From positions 1-64,000 of the IMG/VR virus record IMGVR_UViG_3300042514_001262: a stretch of DNA of 64,000 nucleotides; one strand, written 5' to 3'. Every line of letters starts with the position of its first letter. Position 1 is the first letter of the stretch. The notes under the pieces were generated by a model. That model worked only from the letters and a program-made list of their open reading frames with translations. It was not told the DNA's origin and did not search any database. Source of the stretch: a virus. Positions 7,417-39,501 of the stretch are shown piece after piece. A program made the translations under genes and the position numbers.

Positions 7417-7445
7417 ATTTTTTTTTGTTTTAGTTTTATCCTAAA

Positions 7446-7480
7446 TATAAAGGGTATATTAAATAAATACACCCTTTATA
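7446..7480 (-). terminator. hairpin downstream of the sigma gene, containing the TATTTATT motif
   Basis: tataaagggtatatt (7446-7460) pairs with aatacaccctttata (7466-7480) with one G-U wobble on the minus strand; motif at 7462-7469. Confidence 0.55.
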
Positions 7481-7485
7481 TAGTT

Positions 7486-8283: not shown

Positions 8284-8286
8284 ATC

Positions 8287-8802
8287 TTAATTTTTACTAT
8301 AATTTTCTAAAGTTCCTTTTTCAAATGGTGTAAGTGAGTCAACTCCTTCACTTTTAATCTTATCAAGTAGTTGGTCTAAAGTTGGCGCTTTCATATGTTT
8401 TTTTACTTCATTCAAAAGAAGTGCCACAAACTCATCGTCATCTTCATCGTCAAGATGTTGTGTGTTGTTTTTAGGTATTAATACCATGTCAGACTCATTT
8501 AATCCACCATTATCCTCCAAATTGAATAAATGGTCGATATAATTTTGTGACATAAAAACTGACACTTTGTCATTAAATTCTGACAAAATGAACGAATCAT
8601 ATAACTCGTAGGATGTTAATTCCAAAAACTCATGTATATCTTTCATACCCATTTCAGACGCAAAATGAATAATTAAAACACCTGTCATATGTTGGTATTT
8701 AAGCATTTTTGAATCCACAATCGGCGATAAAGCAAGTGCAATTTCTCTCAATTGTTTTTGGGATTGGAACTCACCAATTACTGTTAGAAGGTATTTTTTC
8801 AT
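8287..8802 (-). CDS. hypothetical protein
   Basis: 171 aa; C-terminal LDQLLDKIKSEGVDSLTPFEK helical motif (DUF6576-like, by recollection). Confidence 0.75.
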   Translation of the reverse strand: MKKYLLTVIGEFQSQKQLREIALALSPIVDSKMLKYQHMTGVLIIHFASEMGMKDIHEFLELTSYELYDSFILSEFNDKVSVFMSQNYIDHLFNLEDNGGLNESDMVLIPKNNTQHLDDEDDDEFVALLLNEVKKHMKAPTLDQLLDKIKSEGVDSLTPFEKGTLENYSKN

Positions 8803-24185: not shown

Positions 24186-24243
24186 CAATTTTGTTTCTTA
24201 CTTTATAAGTATAATATTTAGTATTTTTATGTGTATATTTTAG

Positions 24244-24891
24244 TTAAGGACACAGAGTATAATTTATTATGGAACCACCGTTATCGACTTGTACTATGTA
24301 AAAACTACTACCAAATCCCATCTTAATATATTTGTTTACACCGTTGAATGGGTTATATAAAACTCCGCCCGCCAATGTTTGATAAACCGTTGCTCCAATA
24401 ACAGGTGTCAGGTTTGCTTGGCTGATATAAGTATAATAATTTACAATTGTCATTGTATCATTACAAGTATTTCCTGAAGAAACAGATAAATTATTACCAA
24501 TAGCATGATAAGCAACAACAGGTGTTGGAGTTGGTGTTGGTGTTTTTGTTGGTGTTATAGTTGGTGTTACAGTTTTTGTAGGAGTTACTGTTGGTGTTGC
24601 AGTTTTTGTTGGTGTTATTGTTGGTGTTATTGTTGGTGTGATAGTTGGTGTTGGTGTGACCGAAGTTGTAGGTGTCGGTGTTATTAAAATAACATGACCT
24701 ATTTCACAATTTTGTGTATCAACAATTTTAACAATAAAATCACTATAGTCATACGGGTCAGGCACATTAAAAGTATATGGGAATGTTGAAGCACTTGTAA
24801 CATAAACACAACTCGCACTCATAGAATCACAATAGTAGATGTCTACGGGTGTGTTAGCTGTTACAGATGATATAGTTACTTGTTCGCTCAT
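24244..24891 (-). CDS. small beta-domain plus PT-linker protein
   Basis: N-terminal domain ending KIVDTQNC, a TPT tract, then a C-terminal domain. Confidence 0.75.
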
Positions 24892-24901
24892 GTTTTATCT
24901 A

Positions 24902-25408
24902 TTATAATGGACTTGCCGTTGGAGTTATTGTTGGAGTCACAGTATTTGTTGGAGTAACCGTTGGAGTTATCGTTGGAGTTACTGTATTAGTAGGTGTAAC
25001 TGTGGTTGTTGGAGTTACTGTATTAGTAGGGGTGATTGTTGGTGTTGCAGTCCTTGTTGGAGTAACCGTTGGGGTCGCAGTCCTTGTTGGAGTAACCGTT
25101 GGGGTCGCAGTCCTTGTTGGAGTAACCGTTGGTGTTATTGTTGGAGTTACAGTTATTGTTGGTGTAACCGTTGGTGTTACATTTGGACACGGTTCAACAG
25201 AACCTATACCAGTTATTATACACCCATTGTCATCAATTATTTTTAACATATAAGCATCAGATGTATTATAAGGTGCCGGTATATCAAAAACATACGGTGC
25301 GGAAGATATGGTTGTCATATAAAAACAACCTGTGCCACCTGTTTGACATATATAAATGTCATATGGTAATTGTCCTGTAATTGTATATATTGAAACTTGT
25401 ATTGCCAT
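24902..25408 (-). CDS. small beta-domain plus long PT tail protein (paralog of 24244..24891)
   Basis: N-terminal domain ending KIIDDNGC; about 90-aa TPT tail with a 30-bp tandem repeat at ~25047-25132. Confidence 0.75.
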
Positions 25409-25411
25409 TTT

Positions 25412-27670
25412 TTAAGGACATCCGTTTAAAGTTAATGTGTAATCTACACCAACCACAGGTGGTGGGTTAAAATTATCTGCCCATGTTGCCCCCGGTAAAC
25501 TACCTAAAGGAACTGTTGATTGTAAACATCTTTGACCACCAGGAACAATTGGAGTATTAACAACTTGATATCCAGGACATGGTGTTGATAAGTTTGGTCT
25601 TATTGCCAACGAATGTCCAGTTGCTGTTGTAATATTTTCAAATAAATATTCATAACAAATTGGTGTGGATATACAAGTTTGACAATCATCATACTCTGTT
25701 TGGAATGCTGACGCAAAATAATCACCTGTATAAGTTAACGGTGTATATCCAATTGTTGCAATATAATTAGAACCAAATTGACCAAGATATGACCAACAAT
25801 TTCCACTTGAATCTTTAAATGTATTTCCAACAACACTTGTTATTGGTGATTGTACAGTTTGAATTACCTGTGTTGGAATTACAGGTTGTCCTCCACCACA
25901 TGTCTGATATACATAAACATAAGTTGGTGTTTGAGTTGGCGTTTTAGTTGGTGTTGGTGTTTGAGTTGGAGTTTTAGTTGGTGTCACACTAGGACTCGCC
26001 CCTGGCGTTGAAGTAGTTGTTGGTGTTGGTGTGTTCGTTGGGGTAATTGTTGGTGTAGTTGTTGGAGTAGGGGTAGTTGTTGGCGTAGGGTCAGGTAAAC
26101 AATTACCACATATTGAATATAACTGTGTAATACTTGTTAAGTTTGAATTTGATGATATGTTAGAATCGTCTCTATCATAAGTAACACATAAATTATTTCC
26201 GTTGATAACCGCGGACATTGTAATACCTGTAACAATTGGTATTCCATTAAATATCAAATTATCAGTAACATAGTATTCAACACCACTTACACAATCAACA
26301 AGGACTTTAACTGACACACAACTAAATGTTTCATCCAACATCACAAACGAAACTTGACCTGCAACTTCACAAGTTTTTGTTAATGTAACTGTCGGAGTAT
26401 TTGTTGGTGTCGGGGTTGTATTATTATAACTACAAATATTAAAGGTCATTCCAACATTACATGGTTGAGTTGGTGTTGGGGTTGGCGGTAAGAAAGATGA
26501 TGTAATTACAAAATCAACCTCATCACAAGGTATAGTCGGTGTAGGTGTTGGGACAGGTTCCCAATCACAATCAAAATAAGCCGTAAAGTCAAAGATATCA
26601 CAATTGATTGGTGAAGGTGTTGGAGTAGGACATGGTCCACTATTAAATAAATTCGCAGAAATATCAGGACAATTTGAATAACAAGGGTATGCGCCTTCAA
26701 GATAACAAGAACCACTTAAACTATTACTCAAACACCATCTATCACCTGTATAATATATTACACCATAATTGATACCGTCTCCCGAATAATAGAATTTAGC
26801 ATTATAAGTTCCAGCCTGTACATAGTTCCCACTATATCCTGAAAGTGATGGCAATGTCGTTCTTAGACAATATGTTGAACTACAAGGAGCAGGACTTGAA
26901 GTTATTGTTGGTGTAGGGGTTGGTGTTTTAGTTGGTGTAGGAGTTAGATTAATTGTTGGTGTTACTGTTGGTGTTGCAGTTTTTGTTGGTGTTATTGTTG
27001 GCGTTGCAGTTTTTGTTGGTGTTGGTGTAACTGTTGGAGTATTTGTTGGTGTTGGAGACGGGCATGTAATACAAGTCGCACAATCAACTTGAGGTCCTGT
27101 AAAGACACCTCCATTATAAATTGTTCCTGTTGAAGTATTAGCAACGACAGTCGCGCATCCTGTAAATCCACTATTAACAATATCCCAAACTTGTCCAACA
27201 GTTAAAGTACCGGGAACATTTTGAATTCTAAAAATGTTTGTTGGGTCACAACAATCTTGGAATTGATAGATGTCGTATGGTTCAGTTGGTGTGGGAGTTT
27301 GTGTCGGAGTATTTGTTGGTGTTTTTGTAACTGTAGGTGTTGGAGTGTTTGTTGGTGTTTCTGTAATAGTTGGTGTCGGAGTATTTGTTGGTGTTTCTGT
27401 AATAGTTGGTGTTGGGGTGTTTGTTGGTGTCGGAGTGTTTGTTGGCGTTTGACTTGGAGCTGGTTCCGCATTACATGTGGCACAATCAACATATGGTCCA
27501 TAATAATTGGTATTTGATATTGTTCCTGATATTCCTGTAGATTCCCAACATGATGATGATGAATAATCAAATAAAACAACACCTACAGTATAAATTGCAG
27601 TATCAACTAAAAAATCTTTAGTCGTCAAAGGAGTAGAACAGTTACTGAATCTTATTATTGCGAGTCCCAT
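25412..27670 (-). CDS. Cys-rich modules separated by PT linkers; putative virion appendage protein
   Basis: Repeated modules ending DCxTC (DCATC twice, DCQTC) plus ICGNC, with several TPT tracts. Confidence 0.75.
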   Translation of the reverse strand: MGLAIIRFSNCSTPLTTKDFLVDTAIYTVGVVLFDYSSSSCWESTGISGTISNTNYYGPYVDCATCNAEPAPSQTPTNTPTPTNTPTPTITETPTNTPTPTITETPTNTPTPTVTKTPTNTPTQTPTPTEPYDIYQFQDCCDPTNIFRIQNVPGTLTVGQVWDIVNSGFTGCATVVANTSTGTIYNGGVFTGPQVDCATCITCPSPTPTNTPTVTPTPTKTATPTITPTKTATPTVTPTINLTPTPTKTPTPTPTITSSPAPCSSTYCLRTTLPSLSGYSGNYVQAGTYNAKFYYSGDGINYGVIYYTGDRWCLSNSLSGSCYLEGAYPCYSNCPDISANLFNSGPCPTPTPSPINCDIFDFTAYFDCDWEPVPTPTPTIPCDEVDFVITSSFLPPTPTPTQPCNVGMTFNICSYNNTTPTPTNTPTVTLTKTCEVAGQVSFVMLDETFSCVSVKVLVDCVSGVEYYVTDNLIFNGIPIVTGITMSAVINGNNLCVTYDRDDSNISSNSNLTSITQLYSICGNCLPDPTPTTTPTPTTTPTITPTNTPTPTTTSTPGASPSVTPTKTPTQTPTPTKTPTQTPTYVYVYQTCGGGQPVIPTQVIQTVQSPITSVVGNTFKDSSGNCWSYLGQFGSNYIATIGYTPLTYTGDYFASAFQTEYDDCQTCISTPICYEYLFENITTATGHSLAIRPNLSTPCPGYQVVNTPIVPGGQRCLQSTVPLGSLPGATWADNFNPPPVVGVDYTLTLNGCP

Positions 27671-27836: not shown

Positions 27837-28019
27837 ATGAAACTTATTAAAACAATTGAAAACATAATTAAAGAAGCTGAAGAACAATACAATTCTGCAT
27901 GCGAGAGTTGTGTTACGGTTGAAGAATTGGACCGTCTTGAAAAACATTATAAAGATTCATTAAAATTGATGAAGCTTTGTAAATCAAAAGAGGAAAAAAA
28001 TAAAGATAAAAAATCTTAG
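27837..28019 (+). CDS. small helical protein (60 aa)
   Basis: ATG at 27837 is 4 nt after TATTTATT (27825-27832); contains LIKTIENIIKE. Confidence 0.6.
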   Translation: MKLIKTIENIIKEAEEQYNSACESCVTVEELDRLEKHYKDSLKLMKLCKSKEEKNKDKKS

Positions 28020-28867
28020 TTTTTCTTCATAATCGCTTCGCATATTCCTTTTTCGGAATAAGTAACATATCCTTTAACTTGTAACCAAGAATAAATTTCA
28101 TCTTTATTTTCTTGAGTCAGATTATAATCCTCAAAGATTATGAAATTTGGTAATGAAACTTTTTTCTCATCAATACCCATGATTAGTTGAGCGTCTAATC
28201 CTTCAACATCAAGGTGTAACCAATCAATATACCCACCACATTCATTCAAAATTAAATCGGTAATACTAATTGAATTTCTTTTAGTGGATTTGATTTCTTC
28301 TTTTTCCCAATGTCTAATGACATTTTCAACCACAGTATTTGTATATCCTTGACCACCTTCATAGAATTCAACTTCACCACCATTTGGGGTCACCAATGCT
28401 TGAATTTTCTTAACCCTTGAGTTTTTAGAATAATTGTATTTTAAGTTCTGGAATTGTTTGTCTGATGCCTCAACCAAAATTACTTCACAATCTCTGTTTT
28501 TTACAATAGGTACCCATTCACCAAATTCACCATCGTGTGTTCCAATAACTAATCCACGAGGGAATTTTCCTTTGGAAAGTAAATTTTTGTTGTACATCCA
28601 TAGGGATTTATAAAAATGGTTTCCATGCTCCATAACATCCCACACTTTTTTATAAATCAACTTATCTTTTGAATCAGTTACTTCTACATCAAACATTTCT
28701 GTATTCGGATATGTTGCAAACCAGCTATCATTTAATTGTGTTGACCACTGAATATCTCCACTAACATGTTTTTTTATTTTCAGGTTGAGTGGTAGATTTT
28801 GATTGTAATTACTTACAATGCCAACATCCACTCTAATACCTTCTGAACTGTATTTTACACTTATCAT
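28016..28867 (-). CDS. FkbM-like methyltransferase with an extra N-terminal domain
   Basis: LVIGTHDG, ILVEA, IDWLHLDVEGLD, IIFE. Confidence 0.75.
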   Translation of the reverse strand: MISVKYSSEGIRVDVGIVSNYNQNLPLNLKIKKHVSGDIQWSTQLNDSWFATYPNTEMFDVEVTDSKDKLIYKKVWDVMEHGNHFYKSLWMYNKNLLSKGKFPRGLVIGTHDGEFGEWVPIVKNRDCEVILVEASDKQFQNLKYNYSKNSRVKKIQALVTPNGGEVEFYEGGQGYTNTVVENVIRHWEKEEIKSTKRNSISITDLILNECGGYIDWLHLDVEGLDAQLIMGIDEKKVSLPNFIIFEDYNLTQENKDEIYSWLQVKGYVTYSEKGICEAIMKKN

Positions 28868-29412
28868 ACCGTATGTTTTTCAATAAAATAATTTATATCT
28901 GCACTCCACAACAACATTGCCTCTTCTTTGATTTTACTTTCCTCCCAATCCCACCAACTTATTTCCAATAATTTTTCAATCTGTTTTTCATCAAATCTGA
29001 ACTTGATATGTTTGGCAGGGTTTCCACCGACAACAGAATAAGGTTGAACATCTTTGGTAACCACCGCACCTGCGGCAACAATTGCTCCATGACCGATTTT
29101 AATTCCTGACATGATTGTTGATTTGGCACCAATCCAAACATCGTTTCCGATGATGATATCACCTTTACATGAAGGGTGACCCATTTGCATGTGCATACTT
29201 GCAATTTCAGGTGTAACAGGTCCCCACAATTGGGATGATGTTGTTATCCAGTCAGGTCTATGATTTGCATGTAAGAAGAAACTACAATCTCTACCTATTG
29301 AACAATATTTTCCAACTTTAATTTTGTAATCATCACTCCAAGAAATTATATTGACATTTCTGTCGTAGTATGTTCCTCTATCTGCAATCCAAAGATGCAA
29401 GTTTTCTCCCAT
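28864..29412 (-). CDS. hexapeptide-repeat acetyltransferase (CatB/Vat-like family)
   Basis: VGKYCSIG, H.PDWITT, KGDIIIGNDVWIG, IGHGAIVAAGAVVTKDVQPYSVVGGNPAK, RF, WWDW. Confidence 0.9.
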   Translation of the reverse strand: MGENLHLWIADRGTYYDRNVNIISWSDDYKIKVGKYCSIGRDCSFFLHANHRPDWITTSSQLWGPVTPEIASMHMQMGHPSCKGDIIIGNDVWIGAKSTIMSGIKIGHGAIVAAGAVVTKDVQPYSVVGGNPAKHIKFRFDEKQIEKLLEISWWDWEESKIKEEAMLLWSADINYFIEKHTV

Positions 29413-29413
29413 A

Positions 29414-30865
29414 TTACTTTATAGTATTGTGTTTAACTTTTTTAATTATATCTGTAATATCGTACTCAACTGAATCCATTTCAAGGATTACGGTGTGATA
29501 ATTTGTTTTGTTAAAACCTAAGTTTATAAGTTTGTCTGTATTCACGATTTCTACCTTATCATCAACTTTTACTTTAATCTCTTGTCCTTTCATTTCATAG
29601 AATAAAAGTTTAATTGGTGCACCAGTTTCATCATTTTTTTCAATATAGAATTTGAATTTATCTGTTGGTGAGTAATTGAATAAATCAAGATTTTCATAAA
29701 AATAAATCCAATCTTCAACAGGCGTTGTTTCAGTTGTATATGGTAGTTTTTCTTTTAGAATTCGTAACCATTCAAACGCATCAGAATCTTTTTCACTCAT
29801 GTAACTTTCTAACGATATTTGGGATATAAATTCCTTAAGATTTTCTCTGTTGAAAATCATATAATGTAATCCAGTTTGCCAAATAATGTCTCCTCGTTTT
29901 GACGGGTAGATACTAAAATCTTTATTTGAGTTAAATCCTTCAATTACATTTTCATCAATTTTCAAATCATATATCATATGAAAGAATTGGTCGTATCCTA
30001 AATTCAATGCAATTTCGCTTAATTGTTTCACTTGAGTTAGTCCTGCAAATCCATAATCGGGATATGTTCTTGACACTTTACGTTTTTGACCTTCAATATC
30101 CACATAAACCCAACTTCTCATCGCCCTTAATGGCCAATCCAAAACAGGGTTGTCTTTTGTGAAGAAAAAATAATCGCAAAGTTTTGTAACCGATTCAGGT
30201 AATGATATTGGACTAATTGCAATAACATCCAAACCATGTCCCTTAACCAATTTTATATTTTTTTCTAAAACATCAATCTTTTCTTGGGTGTCACAAAAAG
30301 TACTAATTAAAGCAACTTTCTTTTCCAGAACAGGTTTTTTTCTATAGATACCAACTGAGTCGTCCCAATATCTGTTTGGCTCATTTGGGCCTGAGGGTGT
30401 TGTGGTATCAATATAATGTTCAACCAATTCAATATCATAACCTAATTTTTTACCCCATTTTTCAAGAGCTTTCCAACTATCAATATAAAATCTCCAATTG
30501 TCACCAGGCCAACCGTGATATGCCCCATTTGATGGTGCTTGAATGTACATGTATCCACCTGGTTTTAAAACTCTACACATTTCGTGGAATGAAACCCAAA
30601 ACATGTCGTCATGTTCAAAACAAGATGATGATATCACAATATCCATTTCATTATCAGAAATTGGAATATCATGAGAAACTCCAACAATATCAACATTTGG
30701 TCCTTCTTCCATGTCCAACCCAATATATTGACCTTTTTCAAAAATTGGTTTCATTGTCCCGTTCACATCATATGAACCAACATCTAATATTTTTTTATTT
30801 TCAATATTTTTTTCACAATACTTGTGATAGAATTTTTCCGCGTTTACGTAGGCTGAGTGATGCAT
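29414..30865 (-). CDS. class I SAM methyltransferase fused to an uncharacterised C-terminal domain
   Basis: ILDVGSYDVNG, YIGLD, DIVISSSCFEH, RVLKPGG; about 300-aa C-terminal extension. Confidence 0.8.
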   Translation of the reverse strand: MHHSAYVNAEKFYHKYCEKNIENKKILDVGSYDVNGTMKPIFEKGQYIGLDMEEGPNVDIVGVSHDIPISDNEMDIVISSSCFEHDDMFWVSFHEMCRVLKPGGYMYIQAPSNGAYHGWPGDNWRFYIDSWKALEKWGKKLGYDIELVEHYIDTTTPSGPNEPNRYWDDSVGIYRKKPVLEKKVALISTFCDTQEKIDVLEKNIKLVKGHGLDVIAISPISLPESVTKLCDYFFFTKDNPVLDWPLRAMRSWVYVDIEGQKRKVSRTYPDYGFAGLTQVKQLSEIALNLGYDQFFHMIYDLKIDENVIEGFNSNKDFSIYPSKRGDIIWQTGLHYMIFNRENLKEFISQISLESYMSEKDSDAFEWLRILKEKLPYTTETTPVEDWIYFYENLDLFNYSPTDKFKFYIEKNDETGAPIKLLFYEMKGQEIKVKVDDKVEIVNTDKLINLGFNKTNYHTVILEMDSVEYDITDIIKKVKHNTIK

Positions 30866-30933: not shown

Positions 30934-33210
30934 ATGCTAAAAATATTCGGTCATGGTTCTTACATTGGGAACACAGGTTACAATCAACACACGAGGGATT
31001 TTTTCAGACATCTTTCAAAACACTCTCAAATAAAGTTCAGAAATTTCACGGTTGGAGATAGTTGGAAAGGAATGAGTGAGGAACCCCATAATGGTGAATA
31101 TTATTTTAATGCGACCGACAGAAAATTACTTTACCAACAAGTTTTATGGAACAACGATAGAACAAGAAGTGATTATAAAATGTATAATGACCCATCAAAA
31201 GAGTTTTCACCTGACTTAAATATTGTTTTGTGTGAGACCAACCATAATTTATTTTATGATGAATACTATGGTCCAAAGATTGCTTATAACGTCTGGGAAT
31301 CAACATTACAGCCTGAAGTTTATTTCAATAAATTAAAAGAGTTTGACGAGTTATGGGTTCCATCAAAATGGCAAAGAGATTGTACAATCTCACAAGGTTA
31401 TGACCCGAATAAAATTAAAGTTGTTCCTGAAGGCGTGGATATCTATACATTTTTTCCTGAAGAAACATCACATGAATTAACATCGGACGGAAGATTCAAA
31501 TTCTTTTTGGCTGGTAGATGGGATTATAGAAAATCAATCAAAGAAATTATTGAAACATTCTTAAAAACTTTTGATAAGGATGAACCTGTTGATTTGATTA
31601 TTTCTGTTGATAATCCTTTTTCAGGTGATGGAATGAAAACAACCGAAGAAAGATTGGCACATTATGGTCTTGAAGATGAACGAATCAAAATCTTACATTT
31701 CCCACCAAGAGAAGATTATATTAAAATATTGAAATCTTGTGATGCATTTGTTTCATGTGCCAGGTCTGAAGGTTGGAACTTACCTTTGATTGAAGCAATG
31801 GCTTGTGGTGTTCCATCAATATATTCAAATTGTTCGGGTCAGTTGGAATTTGCTGAAGGTAAAGGTATCCCTGTTAGTATCGTTGGTGAAAAACCAGTTG
31901 ATGCAAGCACCTATAGCCATTTCAATGATTCTGTTGGAAATTATTATGAACCTGACTTCAAAGATTTAGGGAAAAAAATGTGGGAAGTGGTTACAAACCA
32001 TTCAAAATATAAACAACTCGCCCTAGAAGAATCCGAAGAAATTAGATTTAAGTTCAATTGGGAAAAAGTTGCTGAAATTGGTGTCAACACAATAAATGAG
32101 TTTTTGGAAAAACATAAAACAACTGAAGATACGAACCAAGTTATTGTCTCTTACTTGGATGGTCCAAGAGTGGACATAAAAGGAAATGAAGGTAGAAAAT
32201 ACTTTGTTGAATTTATTGACGGTGATGGTAAGGTTAGATATTCAGACACTATTTCAAACAACATGTGGACAGCTTGTGGTATCAAATATTATGTTCCATG
32301 GACAATAAGAATTAACGGTGAAGTTGTTGATAAGTTTAATATTGAAAACAAAACGATTTTAATATCACTTGAATCCAAATCTGTTGGTGATACCATTGCT
32401 TGGGCGCCATATTCCATAGAACTAATGAAACAAAAAAATTGTAAGGTAATTTTAAGCACATTCCATAACGAATGGTTTGAAGGTTCTGAATCTTACAAAG
32501 ATATAAAATTCATTAAACCAGGTGAGTCAATATCTTGCGACGCAATTTATAAATTGGGTTGGTTCAGAGACAACAATAAAGGATGGAAAAACTTCAACTT
32601 GCATCCAAATCAACCGAATTTAATTCCATTACAAAAAACAGCATCAGACATTTTAGGTTTGGAATTTAACGAAGTAAATCATGGTTTGAATTTCAAACCA
32701 GGTAAAAGACCTATTGAAAATAAGTATGTTGTATTTGGACCTCAATCAACCGCAGGTTGTAAAGAATGGTCTTTTGAATATTGGACAGAGCTAACCAAAA
32801 TGGTAAGAAATCTCGGATATGAAGTGGTGATTTTATCCTTGGAAGAATATCACATAAAAGACACTATTTGTATCACAAGTCGTGATTGGAATGATGTGTT
32901 TTCATGTTTATATCACTCCGAGTTTTTCGTTGGTTTGAGTTCAGGTTTGTCTTGGGTCAATTGGACTTTGAATAAGAAAACCGTAATGATTGGTGGATTC
33001 AGTCAAGATGACCATGAATTCACAAACAATACCATTAGAGTTTCAACTAATACTTGTATTAAATGTTGGAATGACCCAGTGTTAGTTTTTGATTCAGGTG
33101 ATTGGGACTGGTGTCCTGTGTATAAAGGAACTGAAAGACAACATATTTGTCAGAAATCAATTACACCTCTTATGGTATTTGGAAAAATATTAGAGAATTT
33201 TAAACAATAA
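30934..33210 (+). CDS. GT4 glycosyltransferase fused to an Aah/TibC-type (autotransporter heptosyltransferase-like) glycosyltransferase
   Basis: N-half: WES, WVPS, GRWDYRK, EGWNLPLIEAMACG (GT4). C-half: SVGDTIAW, PLQKTASDILGL, FFVGLSSGLSWVNW, VMIGGFS, CIKCWND..FD..DWDWCP..GTERQHICQKSIT (Aah/TibC Cys motif). ATG at 30934 preferred. Confidence 0.85.
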   Translation: MLKIFGHGSYIGNTGYNQHTRDFFRHLSKHSQIKFRNFTVGDSWKGMSEEPHNGEYYFNATDRKLLYQQVLWNNDRTRSDYKMYNDPSKEFSPDLNIVLCETNHNLFYDEYYGPKIAYNVWESTLQPEVYFNKLKEFDELWVPSKWQRDCTISQGYDPNKIKVVPEGVDIYTFFPEETSHELTSDGRFKFFLAGRWDYRKSIKEIIETFLKTFDKDEPVDLIISVDNPFSGDGMKTTEERLAHYGLEDERIKILHFPPREDYIKILKSCDAFVSCARSEGWNLPLIEAMACGVPSIYSNCSGQLEFAEGKGIPVSIVGEKPVDASTYSHFNDSVGNYYEPDFKDLGKKMWEVVTNHSKYKQLALEESEEIRFKFNWEKVAEIGVNTINEFLEKHKTTEDTNQVIVSYLDGPRVDIKGNEGRKYFVEFIDGDGKVRYSDTISNNMWTACGIKYYVPWTIRINGEVVDKFNIENKTILISLESKSVGDTIAWAPYSIELMKQKNCKVILSTFHNEWFEGSESYKDIKFIKPGESISCDAIYKLGWFRDNNKGWKNFNLHPNQPNLIPLQKTASDILGLEFNEVNHGLNFKPGKRPIENKYVVFGPQSTAGCKEWSFEYWTELTKMVRNLGYEVVILSLEEYHIKDTICITSRDWNDVFSCLYHSEFFVGLSSGLSWVNWTLNKKTVMIGGFSQDDHEFTNNTIRVSTNTCIKCWNDPVLVFDSGDWDWCPVYKGTERQHICQKSITPLMVFGKILENFKQ

Positions 33211-33408: not shown

Positions 33409-36400
33409 CTATTGAGTACAATTAGTATACGCCTTAAAAGTGTAACTAATTTTTACGTCTCTCGCGTCAGGTAAATCACTTACATTAAAACCTAAAAGGA
33501 ATAACACATTACAATCATCTAAAGTATCCTCAACTGTAAAACCTAAATTAAAACACGAAGTGTATGAGTCATCGTTTTTAAAATAATCAGTACGAGTAGT
33601 CAAATTATTTGTGGTGAAAGCGGTAGTAACTACCTCAGAACAAAGAAAATAATTTAAAGCAATATTTATCGCATTGGTTTCAGTTGCTCCTGAACAATAT
33701 ACAATACCACAGACCTCAATTTTGTCACCAACACTTAAAATATATGGATTTGGTATTCCGCAATTAACATATCGTGTACTTAAGGTAGGACTGTTTTGGA
33801 GATTTCTCACATTAAGGTCATATGAACAAGAATCCCAACCACATCGACTGTCCCCATACCAATAGTCTTCACTACTATTTGTTTCAGAATATGCAAAAGA
33901 ATGTGAAGCTATTAACCATTTTGAACCCACAGTTATATTAGCCTGACCTCCTCCACCATCTGTTGCAACAATACAACTACCTTGAAAATTCATTGCTGTT
34001 GTTGAAGACATTACAAATACATTTTCATCGTAGATAGTTAATGCTCCAGATGTTCCACTTGTTCCACTTGAACCATTAACACCACTTATACCGCTTGTTC
34101 CTGATGAACCATTAGTTCCGCTTGAACCTGAAGTACCTGATGAACCACTTGTTCCACTTGAGCCCGAGGCACCTGAAGAACCACTTGTTCCACTTGAGCC
34201 CGAGGCACCTGAAGAACCACTTGTTCCGCTTGAGCCAGATGAGCCGCTAGTCCCTGAAGAACCCGAAGTACCACTTGAACCTGAAGACCCACTAGTACCA
34301 CTTGAACCTGAATCACCTGATGAACCGCTAGTCCCTGATGAACCGCTAGTCCCTGATGAGCCAGATGAACCTGAGGTTCCACTTGTTCCTGAAGAGCCTG
34401 AAGCACCTGATGAACCGCTTGTTCCTGATGAACCGCTTGTTCCTGATGAACCACTTGTTCCTGAACTACCACTAGTACCTGATGAGCCAGATGAACCGCT
34501 AGTTCCCGATGAACCTGATGAACCTGATGAACCTGAAGCACCTGATGAACCAGATGAACCTGATGTTCCTGAACTACCACTTGAACCTGAGGTACCTGAA
34601 GAACCACTAGTTCCTGATGAGCCACTAGTTCCTGAAGAACCAGATGTTCCTGATGAGCCATTAGAACCCGAAGTACCGCTAGTTCCTGATGAACCTGAAC
34701 TACCTGAAGTTCCTGAAGAGCCAGATGAACCACTTGTACCCGAACTACCACTTGTTCCTGACGAACCTCTACATACACAATCTGTTGAAGTTATATCTGC
34801 GCTTCCACTAGTTACTTGCGGAGTTGTTATTGAGCAAACTTGTACGGTTTGACCAAACCCAAGAGTTAAACCTGAAGTACCACCAACACAACAATCGTCA
34901 TAACTAATATTGGTCTCAACTTCCTCTGCTCTGATACTCCATACATAACAAGTTAATCCGTCAATACCACTAGTTCCACTTGAACCTGAAGAACCACTAG
35001 TCCCTGAACTACCACTATTTCCTGAAGAGCCACTAGTTCCTGATGAACCGCTAGTTCCCGATGAACCTGACGAACCGTTAGAACCCGAAGTACCGCTTGA
35101 ACCTGATGTTCCTGAACTACCACTAGTCCCTGAAGAACCGTTAGAACCCGAAGTACCGCTTGAACCTGATGTTCCTGAACTACCACTAGTCCCTGAAGAA
35201 CCGTTAGAACCCGAAGTACCGCTTGAACCTGATGTTCCTGAACTACCACTAGTCCCTGATGAACCGTTAGAACCTGATGTTCCTGAAGACCCACTAGTTC
35301 CACTTGAGCCAGATGAACCACTTGTTCCTGAAGAACCACTTGAACCGCTAGTTCCACTTGAACCACTTGAACCACTAGTCCCTGATGAACCGTTAGAACC
35401 TGAAGTTCCGCTAGTTCCACTTGAGCCAGATGAACCACTAGTTCCTGATGAACCAGAAGAACCACTAGTTCCTGATGAACCAGAAGAACCACTAGTTCCT
35501 GAAGAACCTGATGTTCCACTACTACCGCTTGTCCCTGACGAACCTGATGTTCCATTAATTATACCTAACGTAGTTTGACCATATGAATAGTGAGTTGTAC
35601 CTTCGGTTACGAAAGTAATTGTATGTGATTGGTTTGATGTATTTGTAGATTGAACTTTAACTAATATCCTATCAGTAGTATTGATAGAAGAACCACTCTG
35701 AAATCCATCAGATAATACCATTGATGGATTTGGTGAATTTGTTGTTACAGGTACTGGGTCTGTTGAAAATAATAAAGTTTCAGTCCCACCTGTTGTTCTT
35801 GAATAAACTTCACAGAAAATATTAAAACTCGCATTATTATTTTCTTTATATGCGTGTAAGAAGAAAGACCAAATTCCCGCAGGTATAGTTGATACATTTG
35901 GATAATTTGAAGGTGTTAAATAGGATTGAATAGTTGATGTTACACCATTCGCAATCGTAACAGTTACCGTTTGTTGAGCACCACTTGTTGGTATAGGTGA
36001 AAATTCTTTATAAGGCGTTTGTGTTACTGACTCATTAAAATAATAAATAGCTCCACCTGAAATACCATTAACACCACTTGTTCCAGAAGTTCCAGAAGAA
36101 CCACTAGTTCCACTTGAACCAGATGAACCTGATGTTCCGCTTGTTCCCGATGAACCATTAGAACCTGAAGTTCCGCTTGTTCCACTTGAACCAGATGACC
36201 CACTAGTTCCTGAAGAACCACTAGTTCCTGAAGAACCACTTGAACCGCTAGTTCCACTTGAACCACTTGAACCTGAACTACCCGAAGTACCGCTTGAGCC
36301 AGATGAGCCTGAAGTTCCTGAACTACCCGAAGTACCACTTGAACCTGATGAACCGTTAGAACCCGAAGTACCACTTGAACCTGATGTTCCTGAACTACCA

Positions 36401-39400
36401 CTAGTTCCCGAAGAACCGCTTGAACCTGATGTTCCTGAACTGCCTGAAGTACCGCTTGAACCTGATGAACCACTATTCCCACTTGAACCTGAAGAGCCAC
36501 TAGTTCCTGATGAACCACTTGTCCCTGAAGAGCCAGATGAACCGCTAGTTCCACTTGAACCTGAAGACCCACTAGTACCACTCGAACCTGAGTCACCTGA
36601 TGAACCACTAGTCCCTGCTGAACCAGATGAACCACTTGTACCCGAACTACCACTAATTCCTGATGAACCTGAAGAACCGTTAGTTCCACTTGAACCTGAA
36701 GAACCGTTAGTTCCACTTGAACCTGAAGAACCACTTGTTCCTGATGAACCACTCTCTCCACTTGAACCTGAGGTTCCGCTGCTACCAGAATCACCCGGTG
36801 CTCCCTCAAGATTTATAGTCCAAACACAATACTGTGAATTACCGTTAAGTATTGATGTTATTTCAACAACAAACGCACCTGTTGTTGGGTTATACGATAC
36901 TATATCACCAGTAAACAAATTATTAACATCGTAAGCAACCAAGATTCCTTGCCCTATAGTCATACTTAAATTAGTAGTTCCTGTGAAATATATTAAATTA
37001 CCTATAGAATATGCCGAAAGAGTTAAACAAGTGTTTGATATTCCATTATATATTGGACTTACTCCTGAAGTCCCTGAACTACCACTTGTTCCACTTGAAC
37101 CTGATATTCCTGAAGAACCACTTGTTCCGCTTGAGCCACTAGTTCCGCTTGAGCCAGAAGTCCCTGAAGAACCTGAACTACCGTCAGTTCCGCTTGAACC
37201 GCTAGTTCCTGAAGAGCCGCTAGCTCCCGAAGAACCACTAGTTCCTGAAGAGCCGTTAGAACCTGAAGTTCCACTAGTACCACTTGAACCGCTAGTTCCT
37301 GAAGAACCACTAGCACCTGAACTACCACTTGTTCCGCTTGAACCAGAAGTTCCTGACGAACCACTTATTCCGCTTGAACCTGAAGTTCCCGACGAACCTG
37401 AACTACCACTAGTCCCTGAAGAACCGTTGGAACCTGAAGTTCCCGAACTACCGTCAGTTCCGCTTGAACCGCTAGTCCCTGAAGAACCACTAGCACCTGA
37501 ACTACCACTTGTTCCGCTTGAACCAGAAGTTCCTGACGAACCACTTATTCCGCTTGAACCTGAAGTTCCTGATGAGCCAGATGAACCGCTTGTACCCGAA
37601 CTACCACTTGTTCCTGAAGAACCACTATTTCCACTTGTCCCTGATGAACCACTTGTACCAGAAGAACCATCTGAACCCGAAGTACCACTTGAACCACTAG
37701 TTCCTGAAGAACCACTAGTTCCTGAAGAACCACTAGTTCCTGAAGAACCACTTGTACCAGAAGAACCATCTGAACCCGAAGTACCACTTGAACCACTAGT
37801 TCCTGAAGAGCCACTTGAACCACTCGAACCTGAGGCACCTGAAGAACCACTAGTCCCACTTGAACCTGACGCTCCGCTAGTACCTGACGAGCCATCCACA
37901 CCTGAAGTACCACTTGAGCCGTTAGTTCCTGATGAACCAGAAGTTCCTGATGAACCAGAAGTTCCTGATGAACCGCTAGTACCTGACGAGCCATCCGCAC
38001 CTGATGTACCACTTGAGCCGTTAGTTCCTGACGAACCAGAAGTTCCTGATGACCCACTTGAACCTGAGGTTCCGCTGCTACCAGAATTACCCGGTGCTCC
38101 CTCAAGATTTATAGTCCAAACACAATATTGCGAATTACCGTTAAGTATTGATGTTATTTCAACAACAAATTCTCCTGTTGTTGGGTTATACGATGCGACA
38201 TCGCCAGTGAACAAATTATTAACATCATAAGCAACCAAGATTCCTTGCCCTACAGTTATACTTAAATTAGTTGTTCCTGTGAAATATATTAAATTACCTA
38301 TAGAATACCCTGAAAGGGTTAAACAAGTGTTTGATGTTCCATTATATATTGGACTTATCCCTGAACTACCACTTGAACCAGAAGTCCCTGAAGAACCTGA
38401 GCTACCATCCGAACCGCTAGTTCCTGATGAACCTGAGCTACCATCCGAACCACTTGAACCATCTGTACCTGAACTACCGCTTGACCCGTTTGTACCTGAG
38501 CTACCACTTGTTCCACTTGAACCATTAACACCACTTATACCACTTGTTCCTGAACTACCGCTTGAACCTGAAGTTCCTGATGAACCACTTGTCCCTGATG
38601 AACCTGAAGTTCCAGATGAACCACTTGTCCCTGTACCACCTGTAAAATTGATTAAAACATTTCCACCACCTTGGTTAATAACCGTAGCACCTGAAAATGT
38701 CATACCTGTAACAGATGTTACAGTAACACCTGATGTGGAATCATATACCGTTAAAGAACCTGAACCTGAAGTAATACCTGTAACATTAACAACACTTCCA
38801 TCACTATTATTTAAAGTCAATGTTGAAGTACCGCTATTGTATGTTCCGCCAGTTATAGTTCCTGTGAATCCTGTAATTGTTACAGTACCACCCGTATTAT
38901 TATATAAATCTAAAATTTGTGTACCCGAAAAATATGTACCACCTGTAATTTGAACATCACTTCCCGAAAATATTCTCCATCTTGCATCATTATGTGAAAC
39001 ACCATTAACCCCTTCAATTGTGCTTCCTGTCCAAGAATTGATAAAATCTTTACCAGCTTGAGAACGATTGTTTACAATAGTACTATACTCAGAAGTAGTA
39101 ATAGCCGAACTACCAGTTAAACCTGTTACCGCATTCCATAAAGTGTCATAGTTCGGAATTGTATATTGATAAACAGTATCTGTTTCTTGAACATAAACCT
39201 GCATACCTAATCTTCTTCTACCTGAAGATATATTATCAGAGTTTAATGTAACAAAATCAGGTGAGAAAGCAGAACCAGTTCCTTTTGTAAAATTGATTGG
39301 AATAGTGTTTGCAGATAATTGAATGTTAGCAGGATAAGTTGTTGCCGTCAACACTAAATCTAAATCACTTAAGTTATAAACTTCCATGTGTCCACCTGTC

Positions 39401-39501
39401 TGTAATACAGAAAAGTTAGTACCGAAAGTGCTAGTCCTTACAACACTAGTAGGTCCTGCTAATTGAGCCGAAGATAGGGGGTTTTTATATGGAAATGACA
39501 T
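33409..39501 (-). CDS. 2030-aa Gly-X-Y (G-S-S/G-T-S) repeat fibre protein, collagen-like, with interspersed globular domains
   Basis: Five (GSSGTS)n blocks with Gly every third residue, separated by non-repetitive domains; N-terminal RRRLGMQVYV module. Confidence 0.85.
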   Translation of the reverse strand: MSFPYKNPLSSAQLAGPTSVVRTSTFGTNFSVLQTGGHMEVYNLSDLDLVLTATTYPANIQLSANTIPINFTKGTGSAFSPDFVTLNSDNISSGRRRLGMQVYVQETDTVYQYTIPNYDTLWNAVTGLTGSSAITTSEYSTIVNNRSQAGKDFINSWTGSTIEGVNGVSHNDARWRIFSGSDVQITGGTYFSGTQILDLYNNTGGTVTITGFTGTITGGTYNSGTSTLTLNNSDGSVVNVTGITSGSGSLTVYDSTSGVTVTSVTGMTFSGATVINQGGGNVLINFTGGTGTSGSSGTSGSSGTSGSSGTSGSSGSSGTSGISGVNGSSGTSGSSGTNGSSGSSGTDGSSGSDGSSGSSGTSGSDGSSGSSGTSGSSGSSGISPIYNGTSNTCLTLSGYSIGNLIYFTGTTNLSITVGQGILVAYDVNNLFTGDVASYNPTTGEFVVEITSILNGNSQYCVWTINLEGAPGNSGSSGTSGSSGSSGTSGSSGTNGSSGTSGADGSSGTSGSSGTSGSSGTSGSSGTNGSSGTSGVDGSSGTSGASGSSGTSGSSGASGSSGSSGSSGTSGSSGTSGSDGSSGTSGSSGTSGSSGTSGSSGTSGSSGTSGSDGSSGTSGSSGTSGNSGSSGTSGSSGTSGSSGSSGTSGSSGISGSSGTSGSSGTSGSSGASGSSGTSGSSGTDGSSGTSGSNGSSGTSGSSGSSGTSGSSGISGSSGTSGSSGTSGSSGASGSSGTSGSSGTSGTSGSNGSSGTSGSSGASGSSGTSGSSGTDGSSGSSGTSGSSGTSGSSGTSGSSGISGSSGTSGSSGTSGVSPIYNGISNTCLTLSAYSIGNLIYFTGTTNLSMTIGQGILVAYDVNNLFTGDIVSYNPTTGAFVVEITSILNGNSQYCVWTINLEGAPGDSGSSGTSGSSGESGSSGTSGSSGSSGTNGSSGSSGTNGSSGSSGISGSSGTSGSSGSAGTSGSSGDSGSSGTSGSSGSSGTSGSSGSSGTSGSSGTSGSSGSSGNSGSSGSSGTSGSSGTSGSSGSSGTSGSSGTSGSSGTSGSNGSSGSSGTSGSSGTSGSSGSSGTSGSSGSSGSSGTSGSSGSSGTSGSSGTSGSSGSSGTSGTSGSNGSSGTSGTSGSSGSSGTSGSSGTSGTSGVNGISGGAIYYFNESVTQTPYKEFSPIPTSGAQQTVTVTIANGVTSTIQSYLTPSNYPNVSTIPAGIWSFFLHAYKENNNASFNIFCEVYSRTTGGTETLLFSTDPVPVTTNSPNPSMVLSDGFQSGSSINTTDRILVKVQSTNTSNQSHTITFVTEGTTHYSYGQTTLGIINGTSGSSGTSGSSGTSGSSGTSGSSGSSGTSGSSGSSGTSGSSGSSGTSGTSGSNGSSGTSGSSGSSGTSGSSGSSGTSGSSGSSGTSGSSGTSGSNGSSGTSGSSGTSGSSGTSGSNGSSGTSGSSGTSGSSGTSGSNGSSGTSGSSGTSGSSGTSGSNGSSGSSGTSGSSGTSGSSGNSGSSGTSGSSGSSGTSGIDGLTCYVWSIRAEEVETNISYDDCCVGGTSGLTLGFGQTVQVCSITTPQVTSGSADITSTDCVCRGSSGTSGSSGTSGSSGSSGTSGSSGSSGTSGTSGSNGSSGTSGSSGTSGSSGTSGSSGTSGSSGSSGTSGSSGSSGASGSSGSSGSSGTSGSSGSSGTSGSSGTSGSSGTSGSSGTSGSSGASGSSGTSGTSGSSGSSGTSGSSGTSGSSGDSGSSGTSGSSGSSGTSGSSGTSGSSGSSGTSGSSGASGSSGTSGSSGASGSSGTSGSSGTSGSSGTNGSSGTSGISGVNGSSGTSGTSGALTIYDENVFVMSSTTAMNFQGSCIVATDGGGGQANITVGSKWLIASHSFAYSETNSSEDYWYGDSRCGWDSCSYDLNVRNLQNSPTLSTRYVNCGIPNPYILSVGDKIEVCGIVYCSGATETNAINIALNYFLCSEVVTTAFTTNNLTTRTDYFKNDDSYTSCFNLGFTVEDTLDDCNVLFLLGFNVSDLPDARDVKISYTFKAYTNCTQ
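34045..38637. repeat. five blocks of 9-bp/18-bp degenerate repeats (about 34045-34768, 34958-35555, 36056-36800, 37060-38096, 38357-38637)
   Basis: Higher-order exact units include a 63-bp period (35072, 35135, 35198, 35261) and a 180-bp period (37321 = 37501). Confidence 0.9.
36758..38356. repeat. ~300-bp direct duplication of a globular domain (36758-37060 and 38054-38356)
   Basis: Near-identical copies offset by 1296 bp, encoding SPIYNG..WTINLEGAPG. Confidence 0.9.

What the first reader, a model, noticed from the sequence alone, without database searches (positions are those of the whole stretch)
30934..33210. GT4 fused to an autotransporter-heptosyltransferase (Aah/TibC)-like domain with an intact Cys motif
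Seen: the C-terminal half carries GDTIAW, GLSSGLSW, VMIGGFS and CIKCWND..FD..DWDWCP..GTERQHICQKSIT. Established: Aah/TibC enzymes are oligomeric, Cys-liganded iron-containing protein Ser-heptosyltransferases that use ADP-heptose. Inference: one polypeptide could both initiate (Aah-like domain) and extend (GT4 domain) a protein O-glycan. No heptose-biosynthesis genes occur in this window, so the donor sugar may differ or be supplied by the host.
Basis: partly seen in the sequence, partly recalled or inferred. Interest (0 to 1): 0.8.

Follow-up and report, generated by a model that had tools for sequence, protein, structure and literature searches.

The report
Phage TibC-like plus GT4 glycosyltransferase
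A large uncultured lake phage encodes one protein that joins an ordinary sugar-adding enzyme to a true relative of TibC, the E. coli enzyme that sugar-coats adhesin proteins; it sits next to a giant serine-rich collagen-like fibre gene and most likely sugar-coats the phage's own fibres, though nobody has tested this.

Summary
ORF 30934-33210 (+) encodes 758 aa. Residues 1-394 are an intact GT4 domain. Residues 395-758 are a full-length Aah/TibC (BAHT) module: TIGR04414 scores 201.5 bits against a cut-off of 200, and the AlphaFold model aligns to TibC with Z 38.2 and rmsd 1.9 Å over 346 residues.

The catalytic Asp, Thr/Lys/Trp donor contacts and all four iron-binding Cys are conserved. Two BAHT hallmarks are missing. 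The β-hairpin thumb that builds the TibC dodecamer is about 10 residues shorter. Arg286, the adenine contact, is Val here and is kept in only 9% of 268 relatives.

The fusion is abundant in uncultured phages (over 590 stretches in IMG/VR) and always lies in a variable glycan-tailoring island. Collagen-like genes lie nearby in 27 of 79 loci, against 0 of 80 control loci.

My best reading (about 0.55) is a cytoplasmic enzyme that starts and extends O-glycans on virion fibre proteins. The donor is probably not ADP-heptose. The assembly is probably not a TibC-type dodecamer.

I found no paper linking BAHTs to phages. This scan has already noted the same family on other phage DNA. I class it as a new variant of a known kind; nothing has been tested at the bench.

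The parts
30934..33210 (+). Whole gene: 758-aa two-module glycosyltransferase (GT4 + BAHT-like), stop included
   Evidence: AF2 model mean pLDDT 90.9
30934..32115 (+). N-terminal GT4 (GT-B, retaining-type) domain, residues 1-394
   Evidence: Pfam PF00534 E 3.4e-16 and phrog_2170 E 1e-29. VIA-align: chlorovirus NY2A GT 3oy2 Z 33.9, MshA Z 32.9 over residues 2-394
31768..31794 (+). E279-x7-E287 motif of the GT4 domain (EGWNLPLIE)
   Evidence: both Glu kept in 19-20 of 25 fused-length homologues. That EX7E marks GT4 enzymes is from my own knowledge.
32116..33207 (+). C-terminal Aah/TibC (BAHT)-like module, residues 395-758
   Evidence: TIGR04414 201.5 bits, cut-off 200; 202.8 bits in six-frame search; PDB 4rap E 8e-32; VIA Z 38.2, rmsd 1.9 Å, 346 aligned, model 400-758 to TibC 21-389
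32137..32370 (+). β-barrel sub-domain (residues 402-479), equivalent to the TibC N-terminal barrel
   Evidence: strands E402-479 in the model; covered by the TibC alignment from residue 21; TibC barrel is residues 1-97
32389..32391 (+). Asp486, equivalent to the TibC catalytic base Asp110
   Evidence: Asp in 268 of 268 homologues
32749..32763 (+). Thr606...Lys610, equivalent to the TibC β-phosphate contacts Thr226/Lys230
   Evidence: Thr 96%, Lys 99.6%
32836..32868 (+). Site of the truncated β-hairpin thumb (about 9 residues where Aah/TibC have 19; tip Phe265/Val266 absent)
   Evidence: no hairpin between E630-634 and E645-647 in the model; role of the thumb in TibC
32896..32898 (+). Val655 at the position of TibC Arg286 (adenine N1 contact)
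   Evidence: HMMER and MAFFT alignments agree; Arg in only 24 of 268 homologues; role of Arg286
32938..32955 (+). Ser669 (TibC Pro300 / AAH Ser294 position) to Trp674 (TibC Trp305, sugar O4 contact)
   Evidence: Trp 100%; Ser 67%
33055..33150 (+). Four-Cys 'iron-finger' (Cys708, 711, 727, 739)
   Evidence: gap-free alignment to TibC Cys339/342/358/370; each Cys kept in 262 of 268 homologues
29414..30865 (-). Divergently transcribed neighbour: SAM methyltransferase fused to a 300-aa virus-only domain with a GT-A-like fold
   Evidence: Pfam Methyltransf_11; Atlas finds virus-only clusters; AF2 pLDDT 85.6 and weak Foldseek matches to SpsA, glycogenin and PBCV-1 A64R
28864..29412 (-). Hexapeptide-repeat acyl/acetyltransferase
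   Evidence: Pfam Hexapep E 2.9e-10; phrog_16087 E 1e-48
28016..28867 (-). FkbM-family methyltransferase
   Evidence: Pfam Methyltransf_21 E 5.6e-9
33409..39501 (-). Candidate acceptor: 2030-aa collagen-like fibre protein, convergent with the GT gene, 199 bp away
   Evidence: 380 Gly-X-Y triplets (190 GSS, 128 GTS), 45% Ser+Thr; the only collagen-like ORF on the 102-kb contig
21504..27670 (-). Four genes with Pro-Thr mucin-like tracts (alternative or additional acceptors)
   Evidence: 29-35 P/T/S per 40-aa window; phrog_15511 in three of them, no PHROG match for 21504-24188

Best explanation
This is a phage-encoded, soluble, cytoplasmic, two-module protein glycosyltransferase. The C-terminal module is a BAHT-family enzyme: a β-barrel, a GT-B catalytic core and a Cys4 metal finger. 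Using Asp486 as base, it transfers a first sugar from a nucleotide sugar onto Ser (possibly Thr) hydroxyls of phage structural proteins while they are still in the cytoplasm. The most likely target is the adjacent collagen-like fibre, perhaps also the Pro-Thr linkers of neighbouring virion proteins. The N-terminal GT4 module adds a further sugar. The divergent operon (a GT-A-like domain, two methyltransferases and an acetyltransferase) finishes and decorates the glycan. Unlike TibC, the enzyme probably does not form the thumb-mediated dodecamer and probably does not read an adenine nucleotide. What is shown: domain identity, fold, conserved catalytic and metal residues, loss of the thumb and of Arg286, and gene linkage. 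What is inferred: the acceptor, the donor, the order of action and the oligomeric state.
For: Identity: TIGR04414 is above its cut-off. TibC is the top hit in the PDB by sequence and by fold. Asp110, Thr226, Lys230, Trp305 and the four Cys are conserved here and in 96-100% of 268 relatives. The GT4 module has its EX7E motif.

Protein rather than lipid acceptor: the module keeps the β-barrel and the iron finger, which in TibC bind the protein substrate. It matches TibC, not LPS GT9 enzymes.

Context: the gene lies in a phage structural region with a baseplate wedge gene and a Hoc-like protein. It is flanked by glycan-tailoring genes. Related phages carry variable islands with MT24, DegT-like, DUF6625 and GT8 genes.

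Linkage: a collagen-like ORF lies within about 10 kb in 18 of 35 fusion loci (11 of the 14 loci of at least 18 kb) and in 27 of 79 more distant BAHT loci (15 of 21 of at least 18 kb). The count is 0 of 80 in baseplate-centred control loci (940 kb). The linkage holds across different gene orders and strands.

Thumb and Arg286 loss: read.
Against: There is no biochemical evidence of any kind.

Some linked collagen-like genes are Pro-type (GPI/GPQ/GPK triplets, 3-6% Ser+Thr in the helix). Ser in GSS triplets therefore cannot be the universal acceptor, and part of the linkage may only reflect a fibre-module neighbourhood.

The control loci are all at least 90% identical to one lineage, so they are not independent.

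TibC acts on a β-helix strand-loop-strand motif, not on a collagen-type chain.

In TibC, thumb-tip mutants are dimers that are inactive on TibA. A thumb-less enzyme must therefore work differently.

GT9-type folds usually add heptose to glycans, so the BAHT module could be the extender rather than the initiator.
Confidence: 0.55

Rival explanations
1. The target is still virion glycosylation, but the roles are reversed. The GT4 module (or another island enzyme) puts the first sugar on the protein, and the BAHT-like module extends the glycan with a heptose-type sugar, as LPS GT9 heptosyltransferases do on glycan acceptors.
For: Pfam places the catalytic core in Glyco_transf_9. Many relatives carry two or three BAHT/GT9 repeats, or an extra 292-aa barrel-less paralogue next door, which suggests serial additions. 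The acceptor-handling thumb and dodecamer are lost.
Against: The β-barrel and the iron finger, which are the TibC protein-recognition parts, are retained and conserved. No solved GT9 enzyme outranks TibC.
Confidence: 0.15
2. The enzyme remodels host envelope glycans or host surface proteins during infection, for example for superinfection exclusion or receptor masking, and does not act on virion proteins.
For: Phage glycosyltransferases that change host serotype are known (reviewed in PMC12619734). The candidate host MAG has a GT9 gene and a heptose-nucleotide gene cluster.
Against: The gene sits inside the structural and fibre module, not among early or lysogeny genes. It has a tight, recurrent linkage to collagen-like fibre genes. 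Both modules are soluble cytoplasmic types without membrane anchors (model).
Confidence: 0.12
3. The cassette glycosylates hypermodified phage DNA bases to evade restriction.
For: Many phage GT-B enzymes glycosylate DNA (Pyle et al. 2024, cited in PMC12619734).
Against: No thymidylate-synthase-like hydroxymethylase is on the contig, which is only 33% complete. The BAHT fold with barrel and iron finger is known only from protein glycosylation. FkbM and hexapeptide tailoring enzymes and the fibre linkage fit glycan building on protein.
Confidence: 0.03

Closest known systems
TibC (ETEC) and Aah/AAH (DAEC): bacterial autotransporter heptosyltransferases (BAHT, NCBIfam TIGR04414; PDB 4RAP/4RB4; Yao et al. 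2014, PMC4358343)
   Same: The architecture is the same: β-barrel, atypical GT-B core and Cys4 iron finger. Identity is 27-31% over the full length, with Z 38.2 and rmsd 1.9 Å. Asp110, Thr226, Lys230, Trp305 and the four Cys are conserved, and Ser stands at the AAH Ser294 position. Both are soluble cytoplasmic enzymes encoded next to a large repetitive Ser-rich surface protein.
   Different: This one is phage-encoded and fused behind a GT4 domain. The thumb is truncated (9 residues against 19) and Phe368 is His, so a TibC-type dodecamer is unlikely. Arg286 is Val, so ADP specificity is in doubt. The neighbour is a collagen-like fibre, not an AIDA-type autotransporter. The three classical BAHTs split from all 268 environmental sequences with support 1.0.
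Mycobacteriophage virion glycosylation (Freeman et al. 2023, cited in PMC12619734)
   Same: Phage-encoded glycosyltransferases near structural genes decorate the phage's own virion proteins with O-glycans.
   Different: I know that work only through the citation read, which places the glycans at the C-termini of capsid and tail-tube subunits. I saw no mention there of a BAHT-type enzyme or a collagen-like acceptor.
Multi-domain virus glycosyltransferases: chlorovirus PBCV-1 A64R (2p72) and NY2A GT (3oy2); Mimivirus R655 (9crz)
   Same: These are virus-encoded, cytoplasmic, host-independent glycosylation enzymes for virion proteins, often with several GT or MT domains in one chain. The GT4 half is structurally closest to the chlorovirus NY2A GT (Z 33.9). 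The neighbouring GT-A-like domain weakly matches A64R and R655.
   Different: Those are eukaryotic giant viruses and none is known to carry a BAHT module. The statement about their biology is from my own knowledge, not tested here.
LPS heptosyltransferases WaaC/WaaF (GT9)
   Same: A distantly shared catalytic fold (Pfam PF01075, E 6.8e-7, residues 594-698).
   Different: TIGR02193 (heptosyltransferase I) scores only 13.7 bits against a cut-off of 185. By published description they lack the barrel and the iron finger. None appeared among the top structural matches.

Membership tests
BAHT (Aah/TibC, TIGR04414) | Score above the curated equivalog cut-off over the full model length | tested here: met
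   201.5 bits against 200, model positions 4-371 of 374; 202.8 bits in six-frame search. The margin is thin.
BAHT (Aah/TibC, TIGR04414) | Protomer architecture: N-terminal β-barrel, GT-B core and iron-finger insertion | tested here: met
   AF2 model aligned to 4rb4/4rap: Z 38.2, rmsd 1.9 Å, 346 residues, TibC 21-389
BAHT (Aah/TibC, TIGR04414) | Catalytic base Asp110 | tested here: met
   Asp486; 268 of 268 relatives
BAHT (Aah/TibC, TIGR04414) | Four Cys that ligate iron (Cys339/342/358/370) | tested here: met
   Cys708/711/727/739, gap-free alignment. The metal itself cannot be tested here.
BAHT (Aah/TibC, TIGR04414) | Donor contacts Thr226, Lys230, Trp305 | tested here: met
   Thr606, Lys610, Trp674
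BAHT (Aah/TibC, TIGR04414) | Arg286 contact to adenine N1 (basis of ADP-sugar specificity) | tested here: not met
   Val655 in two independent alignments; Arg in 9% of 268 relatives
BAHT (Aah/TibC, TIGR04414) | β-hairpin thumb with hydrophobic tip (Phe265/Val266), described as highly conserved in BAHTs and needed for the dodecamer | tested here: not met
   About 10 residues are deleted and the tip residues are absent. No hairpin appears in the model. The requirement is stated.
BAHT (Aah/TibC, TIGR04414) | Dodecameric ring assembly | not testable with these tools
   Needs size-exclusion chromatography, ultracentrifugation or cryo-EM.
BAHT (Aah/TibC, TIGR04414) | Genetic pairing with an AIDA-I/TibA-type autotransporter substrate | tested here: not met
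   The reference loci show the pairing. Here the neighbour is a collagen-like fibre in a phage.
BAHT (Aah/TibC, TIGR04414) | ADP-heptose-dependent Ser O-heptosylation activity | not testable with these tools
   No heptose genes on the contig. Biochemistry is required.
GT4 (Pfam Glycos_transf_1 / CAZy GT4) | Pfam PF00534 above the gathering score | tested here: met
   59.7 bits against 26.4
GT4 (Pfam Glycos_transf_1 / CAZy GT4) | GT-B two-Rossmann fold resembling solved GT4 enzymes | tested here: met
   Z 30-34 to 3oy2, MshA, GlgM and BshA over residues 1-394
GT4 (Pfam Glycos_transf_1 / CAZy GT4) | EX7E motif in the C-terminal Rossmann domain | tested here: met
   E279-x7-E287, conserved in fused homologues. 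That the motif defines GT4 is from my own knowledge.

The most novel reading that the evidence does not exclude
These phage enzymes form a large, undescribed branch of the BAHT family. It has lost the dodecamer thumb and the adenine-reading Arg, is built into modular multi-enzyme chains, and O-glycosylates collagen-like phage fibres with a donor other than ADP-heptose. One candidate donor is GDP-heptose from the host, because the candidate host MAG carries a gmhA, hddC-like, gmhB-like cluster and no HldE adenylyltransferase domain was found. If so, this would be the first BAHT-type protein glycosylation outside bacterial autotransporters and a new chemistry for collagen-like proteins.
Probability: 0.27. 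Interest if true: 0.8.

Novelty: new variant of a known kind. Interest (0 to 1): 0.62.

Why it matters
In the papers I could search, BAHT enzymes are known only as partners of virulence autotransporters in Proteobacteria. Here the same catalytic machine turns up in very abundant freshwater phages, rebuilt as one module of multi-domain glycan assembly enzymes and linked to collagen-like fibres. If the reading holds, three things follow. The family's substrate range extends from β-helices to collagen-type or mucin-type chains. There is a natural experiment on what the thumb and dodecamer are for. Sugar-coated fibres would emerge as a common, variable surface feature of large environmental phages, with consequences for host recognition and for escaping host or grazer recognition. 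A cultured relative (Microcystis phage Mel-JY01, gene at 4750-8430, annotated only as 'methyltransferase FkbM') makes this directly testable.

Tried and rejected
I took context from the search for related loci instead.
- A homodimer prediction of residues 395-758 (complex prediction) returned 'no answer' (0.14 against a mark of 0.42). It counts neither for nor against oligomerisation.
- Heptose-pathway searches on the phage contig (PF01467, PF13580) found nothing. The contig is only about a third of the genome. The ten island genes scanned by Pfam, taken from three related loci, showed tailoring enzymes but no heptose synthesis genes.
- HldE domain II was not found in the candidate host MAG, which is incomplete.
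- No BAHT was found in 41 genomes of the candidate host's family. In that call the control rang nowhere at E 1e-10, so it is weak evidence.
- No thymidylate-synthase-like gene was found, tested for the DNA-modification rival.
- No LPS GT9 enzyme appeared among the listed structural matches. That is an absence from lists dominated by TibC and GT4 chains, not an exclusion.
- Literature searches linking BAHT/TibC/heptosyltransferase, or collagen-like fibre glycosylation, to phages returned nothing relevant.
- I rejected the idea that Ser in GSS triplets is the universal acceptor, after finding Pro-type collagen-like neighbours.
- I considered TTG 30886 as the start and rejected it.
Full report
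**What is there.** The window is the first 64 kb of a 101,887-bp IMG/VR virus contig that CheckV rates 33% complete. It carries a T4-type baseplate wedge gene, a UvsX-like recombinase, a DnaB-like helicase, ribonucleotide reductase, an SbcC-like nuclease and a Hoc-like/SprB-repeat protein. It is therefore a large tailed phage. ORF 30934-33210 (+) encodes 758 aa. The Met at 30934 is invariant among homologues, so the upstream TTG at 30886 is not the start.

**N-terminal half.** Residues 1-394 are a GT4-type GT-B glycosyltransferase.
- Pfam Glycos_transf_1 scores 59.7 bits against a cut-off of 26.4, and phrog_2170 gives E 1e-29.
- An E279-x7-E287 motif is conserved in fused homologues.
- The full-length AlphaFold model (mean pLDDT 90.9) aligns over residues 2-394 to the chlorovirus NY2A glycosyltransferase 3oy2 (Z 33.9), MshA (Z 32.9), GlgM and BshA.

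**C-terminal half.** Residues 395-758 are a complete Aah/TibC module.
- TIGR04414 scores 201.5 bits over model positions 4-371 of 374, just above its equivalog cut-off of 200.
- TibC is the best PDB sequence hit (E 8e-32).
- TibC fills Foldseek ranks 1-21 (TMt 0.81-0.84).
- VIA-align gives Z 38.2 and rmsd 1.9 Å over 346 residues, model 400-758 against TibC 21-389. That span includes the β-barrel and the iron-finger region.

**Residue-level comparison with TibC.** The TibC paper (PMC4358343) names Asp110 as catalytic base, Thr226/Lys230 as β-phosphate contacts and Arg286 as the adenine N1 contact that excludes guanine. It names Trp305 as a heptose contact, Pro300 (Ser294 in AAH) as the stereoselectivity determinant and Cys339/342/358/370 as iron ligands. 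It also describes a β-hairpin thumb, with Phe265/Val266 at its tip, that is highly conserved in BAHTs and needed for the dodecamer and for activity on TibA.

| TibC residue | This protein | In 268 environmental/viral homologues |
|---|---|---|
| Asp110 | Asp486 | 100% |
| Thr226 | Thr606 | 96% |
| Lys230 | Lys610 | 99.6% |
| Trp305 | Trp674 | 100% |
| Cys339/342/358/370 | Cys708/711/727/739 | 98% each |
| Pro300 (AAH Ser294) | Ser669 | Ser 67% |
| Arg286 | Val655 | Arg 9% |
| Phe368 | His737 | about half His |

Two hallmarks are missing.
- Arg286 is Val655 in both the HMMER and the MAFFT alignment, and Arg is kept in only 24 of 268 relatives.
- The thumb region has 9 residues where Aah, TibC and a Pandoraea BAHT have 19. 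The tip residues are absent, and the model shows no hairpin there.

In a FastTree of the domain, the three classical BAHTs separate from all 268 environmental sequences with support 1.0. The tree is unrooted and the environmental set was chosen by similarity to the query.

**How common it is.**
- The word-indexed search found 1,956 relatives. Nearly all of the best 120 are about 755-aa fusions, and JGI already auto-labels many of them 'autotransporter strand-loop-strand O-heptosyltransferase'.
- The exhaustive search of 50%-identity representatives found 1,264 clusters at E ≤ 1e-3 and 538 at E ≤ 1e-30. Proteins range from 182 to 2,033 aa, with the domain at the start, middle or end.
- Sampled architectures include GT4+BAHT+PIG-L, GT2+GT34+BAHT, GT4+BAHT+FkbM, GT4+FkbM+MT24+BAHT and proteins with two or three BAHT/GT9 repeats.
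- IMG/VR holds more than 590 matching stretches.
- A cultured relative exists. Microcystis phage Mel-JY01 has a 1,226-aa version at 44% identity, annotated only as 'methyltransferase FkbM'.
- Two huge phages of 636-735 kb also carry the domain.
- Bacterial plasmid BAHTs are 27-31% identical and sit next to autotransporters, as expected.

**Gene neighbourhood.** In the window the gene is transcribed divergently from three tightly packed genes:
- a SAM methyltransferase fused to a 300-aa virus-only domain;
- a hexapeptide acyltransferase;
- an FkbM methyltransferase.

The 300-aa domain folds with pLDDT 85.6 and gives weak GT-A-type matches to SpsA, glycogenin, PBCV-1 A64R and Mimivirus R655.

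Downstream, 199 bp away and convergent, lies a 2,030-aa protein with 380 Gly-X-Y triplets (190 GSS, 128 GTS) and 45% Ser+Thr. It is the only collagen-like ORF on the 102-kb contig. Genes with Pro-Thr mucin-like tracts flank the cassette on both sides.

In 35 related phage loci (53-80% identity) the fusion gene always lies in a variable island of 6-10 glycan-type genes. These include FkbM, hexapeptide transferases, Methyltransf_24, a DegT-like fragment, DUF6625 and GT8. Many loci also have an extra 292-298-aa barrel-less paralogue of the BAHT core directly downstream.

**Linkage to collagen-like genes.**

| Locus set | Loci with a collagen-like ORF | Among loci ≥ 18 kb |
|---|---|---|
| 35 fusion loci | 18 | 11 of 14 |
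| 79 more distant BAHT loci (47-65% identity, 1,057 kb) | 27 | 15 of 21 |
| 80 baseplate-centred control loci (940 kb) | 0 | 0 of 12 |

The linked gene appears downstream and convergent in some loci and upstream on the same strand in others. Many contigs end inside the repeat, so these counts are lower bounds.

Two caveats apply. The control loci are one lineage, all at least 90% identical. Several linked collagen-like genes are Pro-type (GPI/GPQ/GPK) with only 3-6% Ser+Thr in the helix. The association is therefore with collagen-like fibres in general, not with serine collagen alone.

**Donor.** Neither the contig nor the ten island genes scanned from three related loci encode heptose-nucleotide synthesis. 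I checked two spacers. One matches 26/26 bases in a single MAG out of 185,579 species genomes, and the other matches 28/30 on another contig of the same MAG. That MAG has:
- a gmhA-like gene (191-199 bits);
- an hddC-like gene, best hit GDP-heptose guanylyltransferase at 208.6 bits, below the 300-bit cut-off;
- a gmhB-like gene adjacent to these, plus a GT9 gene elsewhere;
- no detectable HldE adenylyltransferase domain.

Together with the loss of Arg286, this makes a donor other than ADP-heptose plausible, GDP-heptose being one candidate. This is a hypothesis only. The MAG is incomplete, the scores are below equivalog cut-offs and host assignment by spacers is indirect.

**Mechanism proposed.** Both modules are soluble, nucleotide-sugar-dependent enzymes, and phage assembly is cytoplasmic, which is also where TibC acts on TibA before export. 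The most economical reading has three steps.
1. The BAHT-like module recognises a repetitive structural protein and places the first sugar on Ser/Thr, with Asp486 as base.
2. The GT4 module extends the glycan.
3. The divergent operon adds another sugar plus methyl and acetyl groups.

This would give a lineage-variable glycan coat on fibres. Without the thumb, and with His at the Phe368 position, the TibC ring is unlikely. A dimer or a monomer tethered to its GT4 partner is more likely, but this is untested.

Rivals are the reversed order of action (0.15), host-envelope modification (0.12) and DNA glycosylation (0.03).

**Novelty.** I found no paper connecting BAHT enzymes with phages, or collagen-like phage fibres with this enzyme family. 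A 2025 paper on large aquatic phages with Bacteroidota hosts mentions core glycosyltransferases only generically. Database pipelines already name these proteins by the TIGR04414 label. This scan has independently flagged the same fusion next to Gly-Ser/Thr fibres in several other phage genomes. The finding is therefore real and recurrent rather than unique to this window.

- the family-wide loss of Arg286 and of the thumb;
- the controlled collagen-linkage count, and its extension to Pro-type collagens;
- the diversity of modular architectures;
- the host heptose-pathway lead.

I rate it a new variant of a known kind.

Noticed in passing
L007:12283-13161 (+); also L009, L010, L011, L017, L018, L026, L033, L035: A free-standing 292-298-aa paralogue (30-34% identical to the C-terminal catalytic part, no β-barrel, no Pfam hit) lies directly downstream of the fusion gene in many related phages. 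It is absent from this window.
   Followed up: partly
window 29414-30865 (-): The 483-aa neighbour is a SAM methyltransferase fused to a 300-aa domain known only from viruses. That domain is a separate gene in relatives. It folds confidently and weakly resembles GT-A enzymes (SpsA, glycogenin, PBCV-1 A64R), so it is probably a third glycosyltransferase of the cassette.
   Followed up: partly
L061:884-4246, L072:91-3591, L082:1-4062, L094:2-4105: In other phages the same fusion gene sits a few kb from classical proline-type collagen-like proteins (GPI/GPQ/GPR/GPK triplets, almost no Ser/Thr). The enzyme-collagen link is therefore not restricted to serine collagens.
   Followed up: partly
L043:5938-7747 (candidate host MAG G001, contig C193): There is a gmhA-like, hddC-like, gmhB-like gene cluster, all below equivalog cut-offs. 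This suggests a GDP-heptose-type pathway in the bacterium whose chromosome matches two spacers of the phage's CRISPR-like array. No HldE domain II was found in this incomplete MAG.
   Followed up: partly
L001:4750-8430 (Microcystis phage Mel-JY01, PP395634.1): A cultured phage carries a 1,226-aa GT4...BAHT-like protein with an unassigned stretch of about 450 aa in the middle. It is deposited as 'methyltransferase FkbM'. A collagen-like ORF lies just upstream at the start of the record, where the deposited annotation has other small CDS.
   Followed up: partly
window 34086-38953, both strands: Several long ORFs inside the collagen-like gene, in other frames and on the opposite strand (for example 36983-38230 +, a PEEPLVP-type repeat), are by-products of the GGN-AGY/ACN repeat and are almost certainly not genes.
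   Followed up: no
L003, L004, L005, L010, L016, L022, L023, L025, L028-L031, L034, L036: Many metagenomic contigs end at or inside the collagen-like repeat, or begin at the GT gene. Assemblies break at this repeat, so fibre linkage is under-counted.
   Followed up: no
P0129, P0133, P0138 (representative proteins): Some environmental proteins carry two or three tandem BAHT/GT9-like domains, one of them with a TibC_1st barrel plus DUF6165. This suggests serial glycosyl transfer within one chain.
   Followed up: no
window 41029-43167 (-): A Hoc-like decoration protein contains SprB repeats (Pfam E 2e-25). This domain is typical of Bacteroidota gliding adhesins and fits a Bacteroidota host.
   Followed up: no
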